A stretch of DNA of 64,000 bases, from positions 32,001 to 96,000 of the IMG/VR virus record IMGVR_UViG_3300028394_000001; one strand, 5' to 3'. Position numbers and translations under genes: made by a program. The notes beneath the pieces are model-generated. The model saw only the letters and a list, made by a program, of their open reading frames with translations. It was not told the origin of the DNA and did not search any database. Source of the DNA: a virus. Positions 12,188 to 15,218 of this stretch are shown here, one piece after another (the first letter of the stretch is position 1; the number at the start of each line of letters is the position of its first letter).

Positions 12188-12262
12188 GGGGGTATAACTT
12201 AACGGCTAAAGTAGTAGGCTTTTAACCTATTAATCAGAGTTCGATTCTCTGTGCCCCTACCA
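12188..12262 (+). tRNA. tRNA-Lys(TTT)
   Basis: Loop CTTTTAA, ACCA. Confidence 0.92.
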
Positions 12263-12353: not shown

Positions 12354-12428
12354 GGCTCGTTCATATAATGGCTATTATCGCGGATTGTCTATCCGTAGAT
12401 GGGAGTTCGATTCTCCCACGAGTCGCCA
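12354..12428 (+). tRNA. tRNA-Asp(GTC)
   Basis: Loop TTGTCTA, GCCA. Confidence 0.9.
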
Positions 12429-12878: not shown

Positions 12879-12952
12879 GCCCTATTAGTATAATGGTATT
12901 ACACCTGTTTTGTAATCAGGTTACGGCAGTTCGATTCTGTCATGGGGCACCA
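12879..12952 (+). tRNA. tRNA-Thr(TGT)
   Basis: Loop TTTGTAA, ACCA. Confidence 0.9.
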
Positions 12953-12960
12953 AGTTTTAT

Positions 12961-13026
12961 GCAGACGTTTTTTAACAATAGAGGGGTCCACCCTTTATCT
13001 ACGCGGAAACCGTAGTGTCTGCTCCA
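12961..13026 (+). ncRNA. D-armless tRNA-like RNA ending in TCCA
   Basis: Acceptor GCAGACG/TGTCTGC, T-like arm CTACG-CGGAAAC-CGTAG, central ATAGAGGG/CCCTTTAT stem. Confidence 0.65.
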
Positions 13027-13031
13027 GTTTT

Positions 13032-13105
13032 CTCGGTATGGTGAAATGGTATCACTCATGGTTTGGGACCATGGAGCGAAGGTTCGATTCCTTCTACCGA
13101 GACCA
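13032..13105 (+). tRNA. tRNA-Pro(TGG)
   Basis: Loop TTTGGGA, ACCA. Confidence 0.92.
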
Positions 13106-13110
13106 ATTTT

Positions 13111-13180
13111 TAGGATGCGTTCAGCAAATTTTATACATTGAACTTTTAATTCAAACCGTAAAAAAGCATCCTGTTGTTTT
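13111..13180 (+). ncRNA. CAGCAA hairpin RNA, copy A
   Basis: TAGGATGC/GCATCCTG stem, GTTCAGCAA, internal TTGAA-CTTTTAA-TTCAA. Confidence 0.7.
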
Positions 13181-13182
13181 AT

Positions 13183-13257
13183 TCCCTTGTAGCTCAGCGG
13201 TAGAGTAGGTGACTGTTAATCATTTGGTCCGTGGTTCGATCCCACGCAGGGGAGCCA
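13183..13257 (+). tRNA. tRNA-Asn(GTT)
   Basis: Loop CTGTTAA, GCCA. Confidence 0.93.
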
Positions 13258-13261
13258 GTTT

Positions 13262-13330
13262 TAGAGTAGGTTCAGCAAACATAAAGCTAACTTTTGGATG
13301 TCTAGCGACAAAAACTACTCTGTTATTTTT
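13262..13330 (+). ncRNA. CAGCAA hairpin RNA, copy B
   Basis: TAGAGTAG/CTACTCTG stem, GTTCAGCAA. Confidence 0.7.
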
Positions 13331-13331
13331 A

Positions 13332-13406
13332 GGTCATATGACGTAGACGGATGCGTAGCGGTCTCATAAGCCGACGAGAGTGGCTCGGTACCACTTATGA
13401 CCACCA
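13332..13406 (+). tRNA. tRNA-Met(CAT), elongator type with atypical T loop
   Basis: Loop CTCATAA, ACCA; T loop CTCGGTA. Confidence 0.8.
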
Positions 13407-13410
13407 ATTT

Positions 13411-13485
13411 CGGTCCTTAGTAAAATGGATATTACACTAGGCTACGAACTTAGGAGTGGGAGTTCGATTCTCTCAGGACCGGCCA
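13411..13485 (+). tRNA. tRNA-Arg(ACG)
   Basis: Loop CTACGAA, GCCA. Confidence 0.92.
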
Positions 13486-13503
13486 ATTTTAGGAGCATTA
13501 AAT

Positions 13504-13701
13504 ATGAGTGATGGTGGTAAAGGTTCTTCACCAAGACCGTTCAGTGTCGCTGATGAAGAATATGCAAAAAGATGGGACATGATTTTTAGTCGTGACCTGG
13601 AAGAAGTGAAAGAAGTAAATATCTCGGTAGCTCAATTGGCAGAGCAGCGGCCTCCAAAGCCGAAGGTTGAGGGTTCAACTCCTTCTCGGGGTGCCAATTA
13701 A
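13504..13701 (+). CDS. Small protein MSDGGKGSSPRP...; frame continues through tRNA-Trp
   Basis: AGGAG RBS at 13491, ATG 13504. Confidence 0.6.
   Translation: MSDGGKGSSPRPFSVADEEYAKRWDMIFSRDLEEVKEVNISVAQLAEQRPPKPKVEGSTPSRGAN
13621..13696 (+). tRNA. tRNA-Trp(CCA)
   Basis: Loop CTCCAAA, GCCA. Confidence 0.9.
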
Positions 13702-13716
13702 AAAAGGTGGTGTAAT

Positions 13717-14205
13717 ATGAAAGATTTTGATATTGAAAAAGTGAAGCAATTCATTGTGAATCAAGGACCAGATACTAAAATCTATCTTGGTGCCGATTCA
13801 GAAAGATTGCGTGTTGATGGCGTATGGTATGCAGATTACGCATTAGCTGTTGTTGTTCATATTGATGGCCGCCACGGTTGTAAAATCTTTGGTTTCGTAA
13901 ACCGTGAATTAGATTACGACCACAAGAAAAGCAAACCTGCTATGCGACTGATGACAGAAGTTTATAAAGTTTCAGAATTGTTCCAAGCAATGTCTGATGT
14001 ACTTGAAGACCGCCACGTTGAAGTTCATTTGGACTTGAACAAATCAGTTGAACACGGAAGTTCTTGTGTTGTGCAGCAAGCGATTGGTTATATCAAAGGT
14101 ACATGTAATGTGACACCAATGGTTAAACCTGATGCACCTGCAGCAAGTTTCTGTGCAGATAGGTTGAAACGTATTTTGGCTGAACAAGAATTGGCCGAAG
14201 CGTAA
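13717..14205 (+). CDS. RNase H-like protein, YkuK/DUF458 family
   Basis: IYLGADS, RLMTEV, EVHLDLN, KPDAPAASFCAD. Confidence 0.8.
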   Translation: MKDFDIEKVKQFIVNQGPDTKIYLGADSERLRVDGVWYADYALAVVVHIDGRHGCKIFGFVNRELDYDHKKSKPAMRLMTEVYKVSELFQAMSDVLEDRHVEVHLDLNKSVEHGSSCVVQQAIGYIKGTCNVTPMVKPDAPAASFCADRLKRILAEQELAEA

Positions 14206-14211
14206 GAAAAT

Positions 14212-14286
14212 GCGGGTATGGTGCTAGTGGTAACACAAGACCTTGCCAAGGTTTAGTTGAGAGTTCGATTCTCTCTACCCGCTCCA
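14212..14286 (+). tRNA. tRNA-Gly(GCC)
   Basis: GCG acceptor, U73, loop TTGCCAA. Confidence 0.93.
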
Positions 14287-14308
14287 AATTCTCCAAAGTT
14301 TACTTTGG

Positions 14309-14385
14309 GGTGACTATAGTGTAACGGTTTAGCACACCACTCTGTGAAAGTGGTAGAATGGGCTCGTCTCCCATTAGTCACCCCA
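14309..14385 (+). tRNA. tRNA-His(GTG)
   Basis: G-1:C73, loop CTGTGAA. Confidence 0.9.
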
Positions 14386-14395
14386 AAGTAAATTT

Positions 14396-14470
14396 GCCTT
14401 GTTAACTCAGCGGTAGAGTAACTCTTTTACACGGAGAAGGTCGGCGGTTCAATCCCGTCACAAGGTACCA
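14396..14470 (+). tRNA. tRNA-Val(TAC)
   Basis: Loop TTTACAC, ACCA. Confidence 0.9.
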
Positions 14471-14519
14471 AATATCGCCTTTGTTGACGGCGTACAATGA
14501 GATAAATTGTCAACAACTT

Positions 14520-14593
14520 GCTCTTATAGTATAATGGCATTACACGTCCTTGGTAAGGATGAAACACAAGTTCAATTCTTGTTAAGAGCACCA
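14520..14593 (+). tRNA. tRNA-Thr(GGT)
   Basis: Loop TTGGTAA, ACCA. Confidence 0.92.
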
Positions 14594-14599
14594 AATTTT

Positions 14600-14675
14600 G
14601 CAACTTTAGCTGATGTGGTCATAGCGGTGGTCTGAAGAACCATTGAAAGAGGTTCGATTCCTCTAGGTTGCACCA
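14600..14675 (+). tRNA. tRNA-Phe(GAA)
   Basis: Loop CTGAAGA, ACCA. Confidence 0.9.
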
Positions 14676-14679
14676 ACAT

Positions 14680-14771
14680 GCCAGCGAGACTGGGTAGTCA
14701 GAGAGGCCTTATACACCTTTTAGCGCCAGATTAGCGTTCTTGAGTGAGTTCGAATCTCACCGCTGGTACCA
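14680..14771 (+). tRNA. Atypical tRNA with TAT anticodon (nominally Ile) and long variable arm
   Basis: GCCAGCG/CGCTGGT-ACCA, loop CTTATAC, canonical T arm. Confidence 0.75.
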
Positions 14772-14778
14772 AATTTAT

Positions 14779-14856
14779 GCCCCCGTGGACAAATTGGCAA
14801 AGTCACTTCTCTCAAAAGGAAGAATTCTCTCGGTTCAACTCCGAGCGGGGGTACCA
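14779..14856 (+). tRNA. tRNA-Leu(CAA), short variable region
   Basis: Loop CTCAAAA, ACCA. Confidence 0.86.
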
Positions 14857-14857
14857 T

Positions 14858-14932
14858 CTCTCTATAGTTCAATGGATAGAACACGTTCCTCCTAAGAATG
14901 AGATGCAGGTTCGATTCCTGCTGGAGAGACCA
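14858..14932 (+). tRNA. tRNA-Arg(CCT)
   Basis: Loop CTCCTAA, ACCA. Confidence 0.92.
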
Positions 14933-14956
14933 AAACGGTATATTTTTTAAAAGGGC

Positions 14957-14985
14957 TTGACAAATTACACTTATTTTGATAGAAT
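14957..14985 (+). promoter_or_regulatory. Sigma70 promoter for CAGCAA RNAs C and D and the DUF2828 gene
   Basis: TTGACA-17-TAGAAT. Confidence 0.8.
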
Positions 14986-15004
14986 ACGTTCATTGTTAGA
15001 TTTT

Positions 15005-15140
15005 TAGGATAGGTACAGCAACACCCTTATTTAAAGGATGGTTCGAGCAAGTATGAGGCAATAAAACCCTTATATCTTGAACCCATGTGAGTTTCGAATT
15101 CTCACTTGAAAGAAAAAGTAGAAAACTATCCTGTTATTTT
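15005..15140 (+). ncRNA. CAGCAA hairpin RNA, copy C (long insert)
   Basis: TAGGATAG/CTATCCTG stem, GTACAGCAA, internal hairpins. Confidence 0.7.
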
Positions 15141-15141
15141 T

Positions 15142-15204
15142 TAGGTTGAGTTCAGCAAACTTTAAATTTCAACGTCTATGAAAAAAAGTTCAACCTGTTG
15201 TTTT
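15142..15204 (+). ncRNA. CAGCAA hairpin RNA, copy D
   Basis: TAGGTTGA/TCAACCTG stem, GTTCAGCAA, internal TTTCA-ACGTCTA-TGAAA. Confidence 0.7.
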
Positions 15205-15218
15205 GAAAGGAAATTATT

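What the first reader, a model, noticed from the sequence alone, without database searches (positions are those of the whole stretch)
13138..15183. Anticodon stem-loop mimics inside the CAGCAA RNAs
Seen: copy A carries TTGAA-CTTTTAA-TTCAA (13138-13154), a 5-bp stem whose 7-nt loop is identical to the tRNA-Lys(UUU) loop in this window. Copy D carries TTTCA-ACGTCTA-TGAAA (15167-15183), with GTC centred and GTCTA matching the phage tRNA-Asp loop. Copy B has both CTTTT and GTCTA in a larger loop. Copy C carries a T-loop-like TTCGAAT hairpin. Established: tRNA-Lys(UUU) is the target of PrrC and other anti-phage tRNases. Inference: the inserts act as decoys or cleavage sensors for anticodon nucleases.
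Basis: partly seen in the sequence, partly recalled or inferred. Interest (0 to 1): 0.8.

Follow-up and report, generated by a model that had tools for sequence, protein, structure and literature searches.

The report
Anticodon-arm mimics on phage Y-like RNAs
Two of four small RNAs that an uncultured T4-like phage encodes beside its Ro60-like protein carry a hairpin built like a tRNA anticodon arm; related phages keep this design, so it may bait enzymes that read tRNA anticodons, possibly including bacterial defence nucleases.

Summary
Copy A (13138-13154) has 5 bp and a 7-nt loop identical to the phage tRNA-Lys loop. Copy D (15167-15183) has the same geometry, and 5 of its 7 loop bases match the tRNA-Asp loop.

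In the window alone this is near chance. Relatives decide it. In 80 related contigs, 42 of 69 unique short inserts fold as exactly 5 bp/7 nt (about 1 expected). U sits at loop position 2 in 48 of 54, and the stems covary.

The four RNAs share a covarying terminal stem and an unpaired CAGCAA. They lie beside a DUF2828/DUF7788 gene (15219-16649) whose model matches only Ro60 structures. Other RNAs with this handle carry permuted tRNA-like (YrlA-type) inserts. I read them as Y-RNA-like scaffolds with modular tRNA-mimic cargo.

Copy C's T-loop-like hairpin is conserved. Copy B's motifs are coincidental.

The decoy function is untested. Hints in its favour:
- One insert class is always U-N-U followed by AAU, the motif shared by PARIS AriB targets.
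- Another class is G-U-N.

The handle/Ro60-like pairing was noted earlier in this scan on other genomes. I found it neither in Rfam nor in the papers I searched.

The parts
13111..13173 (+). Copy A. Terminal handle stem 13111-13118 pairs with 13166-13173; unpaired CAGCAA at 13122-13127. The cargo is a short outer helix plus an anticodon-arm mimic at 13138-13154 (loop 13143-13149, same as the tRNA-Lys UUU loop).
   Evidence: The same cargo design is in Aeromonas phage LAh_9 (L084:2607-2671).
13262..13322 (+). Copy B. Same handle (13262-13269 pairs with 13315-13322; CAGCAA 13273-13278). The cargo is a sequence-invariant block and not an anticodon-arm mimic.
   Evidence: Nine unique B-type relatives; the interior is invariant, so no covariation settles a fold.
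15005..15133 (+). Copy C. Handle 15005-15012 pairs with 15126-15133; CAGCAA 15016-15021. The 104-nt cargo ends in a conserved hairpin 15087-15105 with a T-loop-like loop and a conserved A-rich 3' block.
   Evidence: -35.2 kcal/mol, z = -3.3. (46 unique C-type relatives; the stem covaries and the loop's 5' part is conserved).
15142..15197 (+). Copy D. Long handle 15142-15152 pairs with 15187-15197; CAGCAA 15153-15158. The cargo is an anticodon-arm-shaped hairpin 15167-15183 (loop 15172-15178, GUC centred). The element ends 21 nt before the start codon of the Ro60-like gene.
14957..14985 (+). Sigma-70-like promoter (11 of 12 matches, 17-nt spacer, extended -10) ahead of copy C, copy D and the Ro60-like gene.
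   Evidence: Consensus match only; there is no expression data.
15219..16649 (+). Gene for a 476-aa DUF2828 + DUF7788 protein with a Ro60 fold (HEAT-repeat ring plus vWA domain with a MIDAS-like D-x-S-x-S). It is the presumed protein partner of the CAGCAA handle.
   Evidence: Pfam E 2.9e-25 and 3.9e-47. (invariant D277, S279, S281). (pLDDT 91.6). (the 12 best PDB matches are all Ro60; E 1.3e-7 to 4.8e-5).
12188..12262 (+). Phage tRNA-Lys(UUU), for comparison. Its loop is identical to copy A's loop. Its 31-39 pair is G-C, where copy A has A-U.
12354..12428 (+). Phage tRNA-Asp(GUC), for comparison. Its loop shares its last five bases with copy D's loop.

Best explanation
Copies A-D are phage Y-RNA-like scaffold RNAs. 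Each has a terminal stem formed by its 5' and 3' ends. The stem's sequence drifts while pairing is kept. Next to it lies an unpaired CAGCAA on the 5' strand and an A-rich 3' strand. Together these form a 'handle', which I infer is the binding site of the Ro60-fold protein encoded at 15219-16649.

The handle displays an exchangeable cargo. In A and D the cargo is a minimal mimic of a tRNA anticodon arm: a 5-bp stem, a 7-nt loop, U at position 33 (in A and in most relatives), and A at 37/38.

I infer that the particle uses this mimic as bait for proteins that read anticodon arms. The most likely targets are host tRNA-cleaving defence nucleases, which would be titrated or held on the Ro60-like ring.

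Shown here: the RNA family, its structure, its linkage to the gene, the protein's fold, and the anticodon-arm geometry.

Inferred: protein binding (about 0.8), bait function of any kind (about 0.5), and anti-nuclease decoy specifically (about 0.3).
For: Family and structure:
- The handle pattern occurs 3 times in the window against 0.02 expected, and only four true copies exist in the 170.5-kb genome.
- 170 unique handle elements are in 80 related contigs, all on the gene's strand.
- The handle stem is 100% paired, with double changes at 5 of 8 pairs.

Linkage to the gene:
- 125 of about 219 handles lie less than 500 nt upstream of the gene.
- 38 of 78 loci have one ending 14-35 nt before the ATG.
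- Handles also flank the gene in Cronobacter S13, Citrobacter Ci1, Aeromonas LAh_9, Stenotrophomonas DLP_6, Shigella Sf14, Campylobacter Los1, Mycobacterium phage DirkDirk and Listeria LMSP-25, where the protein is 32-48% identical to the window's (handles).

Protein partner:
- The protein has a Ro60 fold.
- A phage Ro60 binds RNAs encoded upstream of its own gene (PMC12135203).
- Bacterial Y RNAs carry a 5'-strand motif next to a terminal stem plus a tRNA-like module (PMC4201824).
- Elements with this handle carry a T-arm/acceptor-hairpin/D-arm cargo that Rfam YrlA matches over its full length (33.7 bits, E 9e-6, below the gathering score).

Anticodon-arm mimicry:
- 42 of 69 short cargos are exactly 5 bp/7 nt, against about 1 expected.
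- Loop composition: position 32 is C in 38 and A in 15; position 33 is U in 48 of 54; position 37 is A in 43; position 38 is A in 49.
- The hairpin stem covaries.
- 8 of 24 distinct loops equal real tRNA loops of these phages, against 4.6 expected (P about 0.04).

Hints toward nucleases:
- All 21 unique A-type cargos are U34-N35-U36-A37-A38 followed by U39.
- U36-A-A-U39 is the motif shared by the PARIS AriB targets Lys(UUU), Thr(UGU) and Asn(GUU), and a U39 change makes tRNA-Lys resistant (PMC12409363).
- The window's own tRNA-Lys has C39, while copy A has U39.
- E-type cargos are G34-U35-N36 (5 of 6).
- A Ro60-like protein of phage Bas63, encoded next to its tRNA genes, counters the Ppl defence (preprint PMC11482910).
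Against: - There is no expression, end-mapping or binding data for any element.
- The hairpins are thermodynamically marginal on their own (-0.4 to -2.7 kcal/mol).
- Copy D lacks U33 and has A32.
- D-position loops differ between near-identical phages. That fits an arms race, but it fits weak constraint equally well.
- The mimics depart from real tRNAs. A32 occurs in 15 of 54 against 9 of 1149, U37 in 10 of 54 against 11 of 1149, and A35 in 1 of 54 against 37%.
- AriB also needs D-loop contacts (PMC12409363), so a bare anticodon arm may be a poor ligand for it.
- A stoichiometric decoy is a weak answer to a catalytic nuclease unless binding is tight.
- My scan found no handle within 3 kb of the gene in Vibrio phage nt-1 or Serratia phage BF.
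- The host is unknown.
- The unique sequences are related to one another, so the counts overstate the number of independent events.
Confidence: 0.45

Rival explanations
1. Same Ro60-like particle, different job. The anticodon-arm mimic is an adaptor that recruits housekeeping or repair factors for tRNA turnover or repair, as proposed for the bacterial Ro60/Y RNA/PNPase machine and the rsr-yrlBA-rtcBA operon. Such factors could be an RNA ligase, a kinase/phosphatase, PNPase, or anticodon-loop modification enzymes. On this reading the mimic does not trap defence nucleases.
For: - The YrlA precedent: tRNA-like modules that tRNA enzymes recognise (PMC4201824).
- The phiLo Ro60 with its Yrl RNAs binds host PNPase (PMC12135203).
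- DUF2828 genes sit next to an RNA ligase (Serratia BF), an RtcB-type 'tRNA splicing ligase' and a phosphohydrolase (Listeria LMSP-25), band-7/SPFH genes (LAh_9 and DirkDirk), and a kinase and a phosphoesterase (DLP_6).
- The elements sit inside a 27-28-gene tRNA array.
Against: - No such repair neighbour lies between the tRNAs of this window apart from an RNase H-like ORF.
- The fast turnover of the displayed triplet at one scaffold position is more typical of conflict than of housekeeping.
- The one phenotype reported for a phage Ro60-like protein is counter-defence (PMC11482910).
Confidence: 0.25
2. The 5-bp/7-nt hairpin is a generic compact U-turn hairpin. It would be kept for folding, spacing or stability of the scaffold, or for an RNA-RNA loop contact. 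It would not be a functional imitation of tRNA. The identities with the tRNA-Lys and tRNA-Asp loops would be coincidence in A/U-rich sequence.
For: - The exact-loop match to real tRNAs is only modestly above expectation (8 against 4.6, P about 0.04).
- A32, U37 and the near absence of A35 are not tRNA-like.
- Copy D lacks U33.
- The hairpins are weak.
- What is conserved next to the ribosome-binding site of the gene is the handle, whatever the cargo. That suggests an operator role in which the cargo could be filler.
Against: - Loop length is held at exactly 7 and stem length at exactly 5 far above shuffles.
- U33, A37 and A38 are kept while the central triplet varies.
- The same handle carries unmistakable tRNA parts in other members: permuted T/acceptor/D modules and near-whole tRNA-like inserts.
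- Two cargo classes fix two of the three triplet bases (U-N-U and G-U-N).
Confidence: 0.15
3. The hairpins are decaying remnants of tRNA genes once captured inside the handle. They would no longer be under selection for anything beyond not disturbing the scaffold.
For: Cargos grade from near-complete tRNA-like inserts (L035:525-623, L063:1022-1119), through half-tRNAs (L015:1366-1459), to bare anticodon arms.
Against: Compensatory changes keep the 5-bp stem. The A-type design is shared between this phage and Aeromonas phage LAh_9, whose Ro60-like proteins are only 43% identical.
Confidence: 0.05
4. The elements are only processing or termination signals of the tRNA operon (stem plus U-rich tail), with no ribonucleoprotein role.
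For: Each element is followed by a U-rich tail and is packed between tRNA genes with 5-10-nt spacers.
Against: - The terminator scan finds none in 12900-15300.
- The stems are A/U-rich, with 50-200-nt interiors.
- An invariant unpaired hexamer and the tight linkage to one protein family across unrelated phages are not expected of terminators.
Confidence: 0.05

Closest known systems
Bacterial and phage Y RNAs of the YrlA/YrlB type bound by Ro60 (Rsr) (Chen et al. 2014, PMC4201824; Rfam RF02553)
   Same: - Small RNAs encoded beside, and on the strand of, a Ro60-fold gene.
- 5' and 3' ends paired in a terminal stem, with a short conserved 5'-strand motif next to it.
- A distal module that imitates part of a tRNA.
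- Relatives with the same handle carry the YrlA-type permuted T-arm/acceptor-hairpin/D-arm module.
   Different: - The motif is CAGCAA, not GNCGAA(N)G.
- The protein is Pfam DUF2828/DUF7788 rather than an annotated TROVE domain.
- The window's copies score nothing against RF02553.
- Copies A and D imitate the anticodon arm, which is exactly the part of tRNA that YrlA lacks.
Thermus phage phiLo Ro60 with Yrl1/Yrl2 (PMC12135203; PDB 9L5Y)
   Same: A phage-encoded Ro60-fold protein with its RNA partners encoded just upstream of the gene. It is the best structural match to the window's protein (E 1.3e-7, TM 0.58).
   Different: The protein is 18% identical. The phiLo RNAs were defined by a CGAA motif in a large bulge. 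No anticodon-arm cargo is described for them.
Class I RNAs of dictyostelid amoebae (Rfam RF01414; PMC7919456)
   Same: - About 60 nt long, with a 6-bp terminal stem of drifting sequence.
- A conserved motif ending in CAGCAA next to the 5' strand, and a variable interior.
- A 3' end CUGU whose C pairs with a conserved 5' G.
- Rfam aligns copy A along the whole model.
   Different: The score is far below the family threshold (19.2 against 41.5 bits). Class I RNAs are eukaryotic, with their own promoter element, and are reported as restricted to Dictyostelia. Their known partner is an RRM protein. Whether dictyostelids have a DUF2828 protein was not tested.
Phage tRNAs that neutralise tRNA-cleaving defences (T5 tRNAs against PARIS AriB; PMC11464382, PMC12409363)
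   Same: Both are phage-encoded RNAs in a tRNA cluster. A-type cargos carry the U36-A-A-U39 context shared by AriB targets.
   Different: The known mechanism is replacement by cleavage-resistant functional tRNAs. The RNAs here are not tRNAs and cannot decode. A bait or decoy role is hypothetical.
mRNA operators that imitate an anticodon arm (E. coli thrS leader; from my own knowledge, not checked here)
   Same: A hairpin shaped like an anticodon arm sits just upstream of a ribosome-binding site, as copy D does.
   Different: In the relatives here the handle, not the anticodon-like loop, is what is conserved at that position. The downstream gene is not an aminoacyl-tRNA synthetase.

Membership tests
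Y RNA (Ro60-associated RNA), YrlA type | Encoded within a few kb of, and on the same strand as, a Ro60 ortholog | tested here: met
   The gene 15219-16649 has a Ro60 fold. Copies C and D lie 21-214 nt upstream and copies A and B about 2 kb upstream, on the same strand. This holds in 75 of 78 related loci.
Y RNA (Ro60-associated RNA), YrlA type | Terminal stem formed by the 5' and 3' ends, kept by compensatory change | tested here: met
   The handle stem is 100% paired, with double changes at 5 of 8 pairs.
Y RNA (Ro60-associated RNA), YrlA type | 5'-strand Ro60-binding motif GNCGAA(N)G (bacteria) or GGUCCGA (animals) | tested here: not met
   The equivalent position holds an invariant CAGCAA. 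The Rfam YrlA alignment does not place its 5' motif on it.
Y RNA (Ro60-associated RNA), YrlA type | Permuted tRNA-like module (T arm, acceptor-like hairpin, D arm) | tested here: not met
   Absent from the window's four copies. Present in 37 of 170 unique relatives with the same handle. One is matched by RF02553 at 33.7 bits, E 9e-6, below the gathering score of 69.
Y RNA (Ro60-associated RNA), YrlA type | Physically bound by the Ro60 protein | not testable with these tools
   No RNA-protein binding tool is available; this needs pull-down or gel-shift experiments.
tRNA anticodon stem-loop (as the object imitated) | 5-bp stem closed by a 7-nt loop | tested here: met
   Copies A and D. 42 of 69 unique short cargos, against about 1 expected.
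tRNA anticodon stem-loop (as the object imitated) | Pyrimidine 32, U33, purine 37 | tested here: inconclusive
   Copy A meets all three. Copy D has A32, C33 and U37 (the phage tRNA-Asp also has U37). In the family, U33 occurs in 48 of 54 and A37 in 43 of 54, but A32 occurs in 15 of 54 against 9 of 1149 real tRNAs.
tRNA (functional) | Acceptor stem with a CCA end, D and T arms | tested here: not met
   ARAGORN and Rfam tRNA do not call copies A-D.
Dictyostelid Class I RNA (RF01414) | Rfam gathering score; dictyostelid genome with the upstream promoter element | tested here: not met
   19.2 and 18.0 bits against a gathering score of 41.5. This is a phage genome. The architecture (stem, CAGCAA, variable interior, stem, then UG) does align.
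Intrinsic terminator | G+C-rich hairpin with a short loop followed by a U run | tested here: not met
   No terminator-like sites in 12900-15300.

The most novel reading that the evidence does not exclude
Phage Ro60-like particles may be a programmable display system. One protein-binding handle would present interchangeable anticodon-arm baits, in families that fix two of the three anticodon bases (U-N-U with AAU; G-U-N). These baits would neutralise whole classes of tRNA-cleaving immune nucleases (PARIS AriB-like, PrrC/colicin E5-like). The displayed triplet would evolve quickly in an arms race. The same handle in dictyostelid Class I RNAs would mean that a CAGCAA-RNA/DUF2828 particle spans phages and eukaryotes.
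Probability: 0.2. Interest if true: 0.9.

Novelty: new variant of a known kind. Interest (0 to 1): 0.72.

Why it matters
tRNA anticodon arms are now known to be a main target of bacterial anti-phage systems. The known phage answers are replacement tRNAs and RNA repair. A protein-held RNA that merely looks like an anticodon arm would be a third kind of answer.

It would also give the widespread phage Ro60-like proteins a defined set of RNA partners and a testable activity. These proteins occur in 697 phage records, and one of them already has a counter-defence phenotype in a preprint.

For the Ro60/Y RNA field, the finding adds a second handle motif. It also adds a cargo type that imitates the half of tRNA that YrlA lacks.

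Cultured phages that carry the design (Aeromonas LAh_9, Campylobacter Los1, Felix O1-type phages) make the idea directly testable.

Tried and rejected
- Megablast of the region against phage records gave no match.
- A sequence search of the protein against PDB chains found nothing relevant. The Ro60 link appeared only by fold.
- Rfam at gathering score found only tRNAs. At loose E-values the window's copies gave only weak Class I RNA hits.
- I considered a pseudoknot between CAGCA and the 3' tail. I dropped it because the tail varies (UUG or UUA) without any change in the hexamer.
- The terminator reading is not supported.
- Copy B as an anticodon-arm mimic is rejected.
- The 185-195-nt cargo class (for example L033:3516-3726) has no Rfam match.
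- The handle scan near the gene in Vibrio phage nt-1 and Serratia phage BF found nothing convincing within 3 kb.
- In a second IMG/VR clade my strict upstream scan found almost nothing. Reading the flanks then showed the handles lie downstream there.
- The protein atlas returned only the same family, so it did not help with the eukaryotic range.
- A full-text search for DUF2828 found only plant and tardigrade mentions.
I re-ran it from stored files.
Full report
WHAT IS IN THE WINDOW

The window lies at 32001-96000 of a 170.5-kb, 37% G+C phage genome. It encodes T4-type UvsX and a family B DNA polymerase. The polymerase is at best 51% identical to those of cultured phages, the nearest being cyanomyoviruses, so the host is unknown.

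Between 9384 and 17035 lie 27 tRNA genes by ARAGORN and one more by Rfam. Four elements among them share one architecture:
- a 5' arm beginning UAG-purine;
- two or three bases, then an invariant unpaired CAGCAA;
- a variable interior with an A-rich end;
- a 3' arm complementary to the 5' arm and ending CUG;
- a U-rich tail.

The elements are A 13111-13173, B 13262-13322, C 15005-15133 and D 15142-15197. A pattern built on these features hits 3 times against 0.02 expected. The whole genome holds only these four true copies.

THE OBSERVATION

- Copy A's 7-nt loop equals the loop of the phage tRNA-Lys(UUU).
- Copy D's loop shares its last five bases, including an unusual U37, with the phage tRNA-Asp.
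- Copy C has the hairpin 15087-15105, whose loop contains the T-loop pentamer.
- Copy B holds both quoted strings.

On the window alone none of this is compelling. The folds of A and D are not better than shuffles by much (z = -1.9 and -0.6). Five A/U pairs are easy to find in such sequence.

RELATIVES SETTLE THE STRUCTURE

Searching IMG/VR with the protein at 15219-16649 gave 80 contigs, with the protein 66-95% identical. They hold 170 unique handle elements, all on the strand of the gene.

Of the 69 unique elements with an interior of 45 nt or less:
- 42 have a minimum-energy hairpin of exactly 5 bp and 7 nt; dinucleotide shuffles give a mean of 1.0 and at most 4;
- 48 contain such a hairpin with U at loop position 2, against a mean of 1.8 and at most 6.

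The loop has the frame of an anticodon loop:
- position 32 is C (38) or A (15);
- position 33 is U in 48 of 54;
- position 37 is A in 43;
- position 38 is A in 49;
- the central triplet takes at least 14 values.

On an alignment of 46 such elements, three of them from distant phages:
- the handle stem is 100% paired, with double changes at 5 of 8 pairs;
- the hairpin stem is 92.7% paired, with double changes at 4 of 5 pairs;
- the covariation score is 0.452, against 0.110 in shuffles (0 of 500 reach it) and at most 0.085 when partners are slid.

The hairpins are weak in isolation (-0.4 to -2.7 kcal/mol). The case for them rests on conservation, not on energy.

Copy C's hairpin is likewise conserved in 46 unique relatives. 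Its stem covaries, the 5' part of its loop is conserved, and a conserved A-rich block follows it.

Copy B belongs to a class of nine unique relatives whose interior is invariant. No fold can be chosen among them, and nothing there has anticodon-arm geometry.

WHAT THE ELEMENTS ARE

The gene just downstream of D is Pfam DUF2828 plus DUF7788. It has an invariant D-x-S-x-S of the MIDAS kind. Its AlphaFold model (pLDDT 91.6) matches Ro60 and nothing else at the top of the PDB. The matches are Thermus phage phiLo Ro60, Xenopus and human Ro60, and Deinococcus Rsr (E 1.3e-7 to 4.8e-5, TM up to 0.61).

Ro60 proteins bind Y RNAs. In bacteria and some phages these are encoded next to the gene. They have a terminal stem with a short 5'-strand motif and carry a tRNA-like module (PMC4201824). 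The phiLo protein binds two such RNAs encoded upstream of its gene (PMC12135203).

The elements here fit that plan.
- 125 of about 219 handles lie within 500 nt upstream of the gene.
- 38 of 78 loci have one ending 14-35 nt before the start codon, whatever its cargo.
- 37 of the 170 unique elements carry a T arm, typically in the order T arm, acceptor-like hairpin, D arm. Rfam's YrlA model matches one such element over its whole length at 33.7 bits (E 9e-6, below the gathering score).

The pairing of handle and gene holds far beyond this clade.
- Cronobacter S13 and Citrobacter Ci1: the handle is also found permuted inside the anticodon arm of oversized 'tRNA' genes.
- Aeromonas LAh_9: six tandem handles directly upstream of the gene.
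- Stenotrophomonas DLP_6.
- Shigella Sf14, Campylobacter Los1, Mycobacterium phage DirkDirk and Listeria LMSP-25.
- A further IMG/VR clade, where the handles lie downstream of the gene.

The motif differs from the YrlA motif, and the window's copies do not match RF02553. I therefore file them as a variant, not a member, of the YrlA family. Earlier notes of this scan describe the same handle and gene pairing in other genomes. I found it neither in Rfam nor in the papers I searched.

THE ANTICODON-ARM CARGO

The short cargos fall into sub-classes.
- A-type (the window's copy A) has a 2-3-bp outer helix that itself covaries. Its loop is always C32-U33-U34-N35-U36-A37-A38, followed by U39. Among unique sequences UGU occurs 12 times, UCU 5 times and UUU 4 times. 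LAh_9 carries the same design with the Lys triplet, although its Ro60-like protein is only 43% identical.
- E-type, absent from this window, is G34-U35-N36 in 5 of 6.
- D-type, the element in the leader of the gene, has a loop that changes even between phages whose proteins are 93-95% identical.

Across all mimics:
- A31-U39 closes the loop in 39 of 49, against 21% of 1149 real tRNAs from the same contigs;
- U36-A-A-U39 occurs in 26 of 49, against 112 of 1149.

That four-base context is the one shared by the targets of the PARIS nuclease AriB: Lys UUU, Thr UGU and Asn GUU. A change at U39 makes tRNA-Lys resistant to AriB (PMC12409363). The window's own tRNA-Lys has C39, while copy A has U39.

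These are suggestive parallels, not tests. The host is unknown. AriB also needs D-loop contacts. The mimics also depart from tRNAs: A32 is frequent and A35 is nearly absent. Only 8 of 24 distinct loops equal a real tRNA loop, against 4.6 expected (P about 0.04).

HOW IT MOST LIKELY WORKS

A sigma-70-like promoter at 14957-14985 precedes C, D and the gene. No terminator-like site lies in the region. A and B sit between tRNA genes with 5-10-nt spacers. They are probably released by tRNA processing.

I infer the following steps.
- The Ro60-like protein binds the handle.
- The cargo points away from the protein and is read by a third party.
- For A and D that third party is something that recognises anticodon arms.

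The reading I rank first is bait for host tRNA-cleaving defence nucleases. It is supported indirectly by the sub-class patterns above, by the rapid change of the displayed triplet, and by a preprint in which a Ro60-like protein of phage Bas63, encoded next to its tRNAs, counters a defence system (PMC11482910).

The main rival is an adaptor for tRNA repair or decay enzymes. It is supported by the Y RNA precedents and by RNA ligase, RtcB, band-7 and phosphoesterase genes next to DUF2828 genes in other phages.

The handle abuts the ribosome-binding site in this phage, in LAh_9 and in DLP_6. The protein may therefore also limit its own translation. That is inference.

VERDICT

B is coincidence. 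The decoy interpretation is plausible and now sharper, but untested.

The system is a new variant of the Ro60/Y RNA kind. Its cargo imitates the anticodon arm, which I did not find described.

Noticed in passing
L082:5896-6138 (Cronobacter phage S13); L081:5891-6125 (Citrobacter phage Ci1); L084:346-462 (Aeromonas phage LAh_9): Oversized 'tRNA' genes of 113-121 nt downstream of or near the Ro60-like gene. In S13 and Ci1 they carry a roughly 40-nt insertion in the anticodon arm. The insertion holds the A-rich block, a capped hairpin and the CAGCA motif, which is the handle in permuted order on an otherwise complete tRNA body with an acceptor end.
   Followed up: partly
window 13113-13173 and 15144-15197: Rfam's Dictyostelium Class I RNA model aligns along its whole length to copies A and D (19.2 and 18.0 bits, below threshold). 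It shares the stem, the CAGCAA motif, a variable interior, the second stem and then UG. Class I RNAs also keep a 3' CUGU and a conserved 5' G (PMC7919456). A possible deep relationship was not tested.
   Followed up: partly
window 15187-15221; L084:2963-2985; L085:2940-3003: The 3' arm of the last handle ends just before the ribosome-binding site of the Ro60-like gene in this phage, in LAh_9 and in DLP_6. In 38 of 78 related loci a handle ends 14-35 nt before the ATG, whatever its cargo. This suggests translational feedback by the protein.
   Followed up: partly
L023:1003-1213, L033:3516-3726, L049:1140-1349, L019:3571-3789, L024:3512-3731, L025:3398-3618: A class of handles with a conserved 185-195-nt cargo, including a T-arm-like hairpin. 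It has no Rfam match at E <= 1. Its identity is unknown.
   Followed up: partly
L007:3172-3324, L036:3697-3850, L061:397-561 and about 20 others: A class of 125-160-nt cargos combines a conserved central domain with the copy C-type 3' hairpin and A-rich block. I did not analyse its structure.
   Followed up: no
window 13717-14205: An ORF of the RNase H-like family PF04308 (E 6e-14) sits inside the tRNA array between the handle RNAs. A homologous ORF is seen in relatives (for example L014 from about 880). It is a candidate processing or partner nuclease.
   Followed up: no
window 13332-13403: Rfam calls a tRNA here (38.9 bits) ending in CCA. ARAGORN does not report it, so it is likely a non-canonical tRNA or a tRNA-like RNA.
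   Followed up: no
L035:525-623 and L063:1022-1119; L015:1366-1459: Some handles enclose a nearly whole tRNA-like insert, or a half-tRNA (anticodon arm plus T arm), with the Arg(UCU)-type loop. These are intermediates between tRNA and the bare anticodon-arm cargo.
   Followed up: no
L086:1319-2578; L090:5308-6464; L084:4534-5442; L089:685-1581; L085:4621-5187: DUF2828 genes of distant phages sit next to genes annotated as RNA ligase, RtcB-type ligase, SPFH/band-7 protein and kinase. This resembles the RNA-repair neighbourhoods of bacterial rsr.
   Followed up: no
L099:1240-1500: One clade has a handle with CUGCAA in place of CAGCAA, next to a standard copy. The hexamer is therefore not absolutely invariant.
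   Followed up: no
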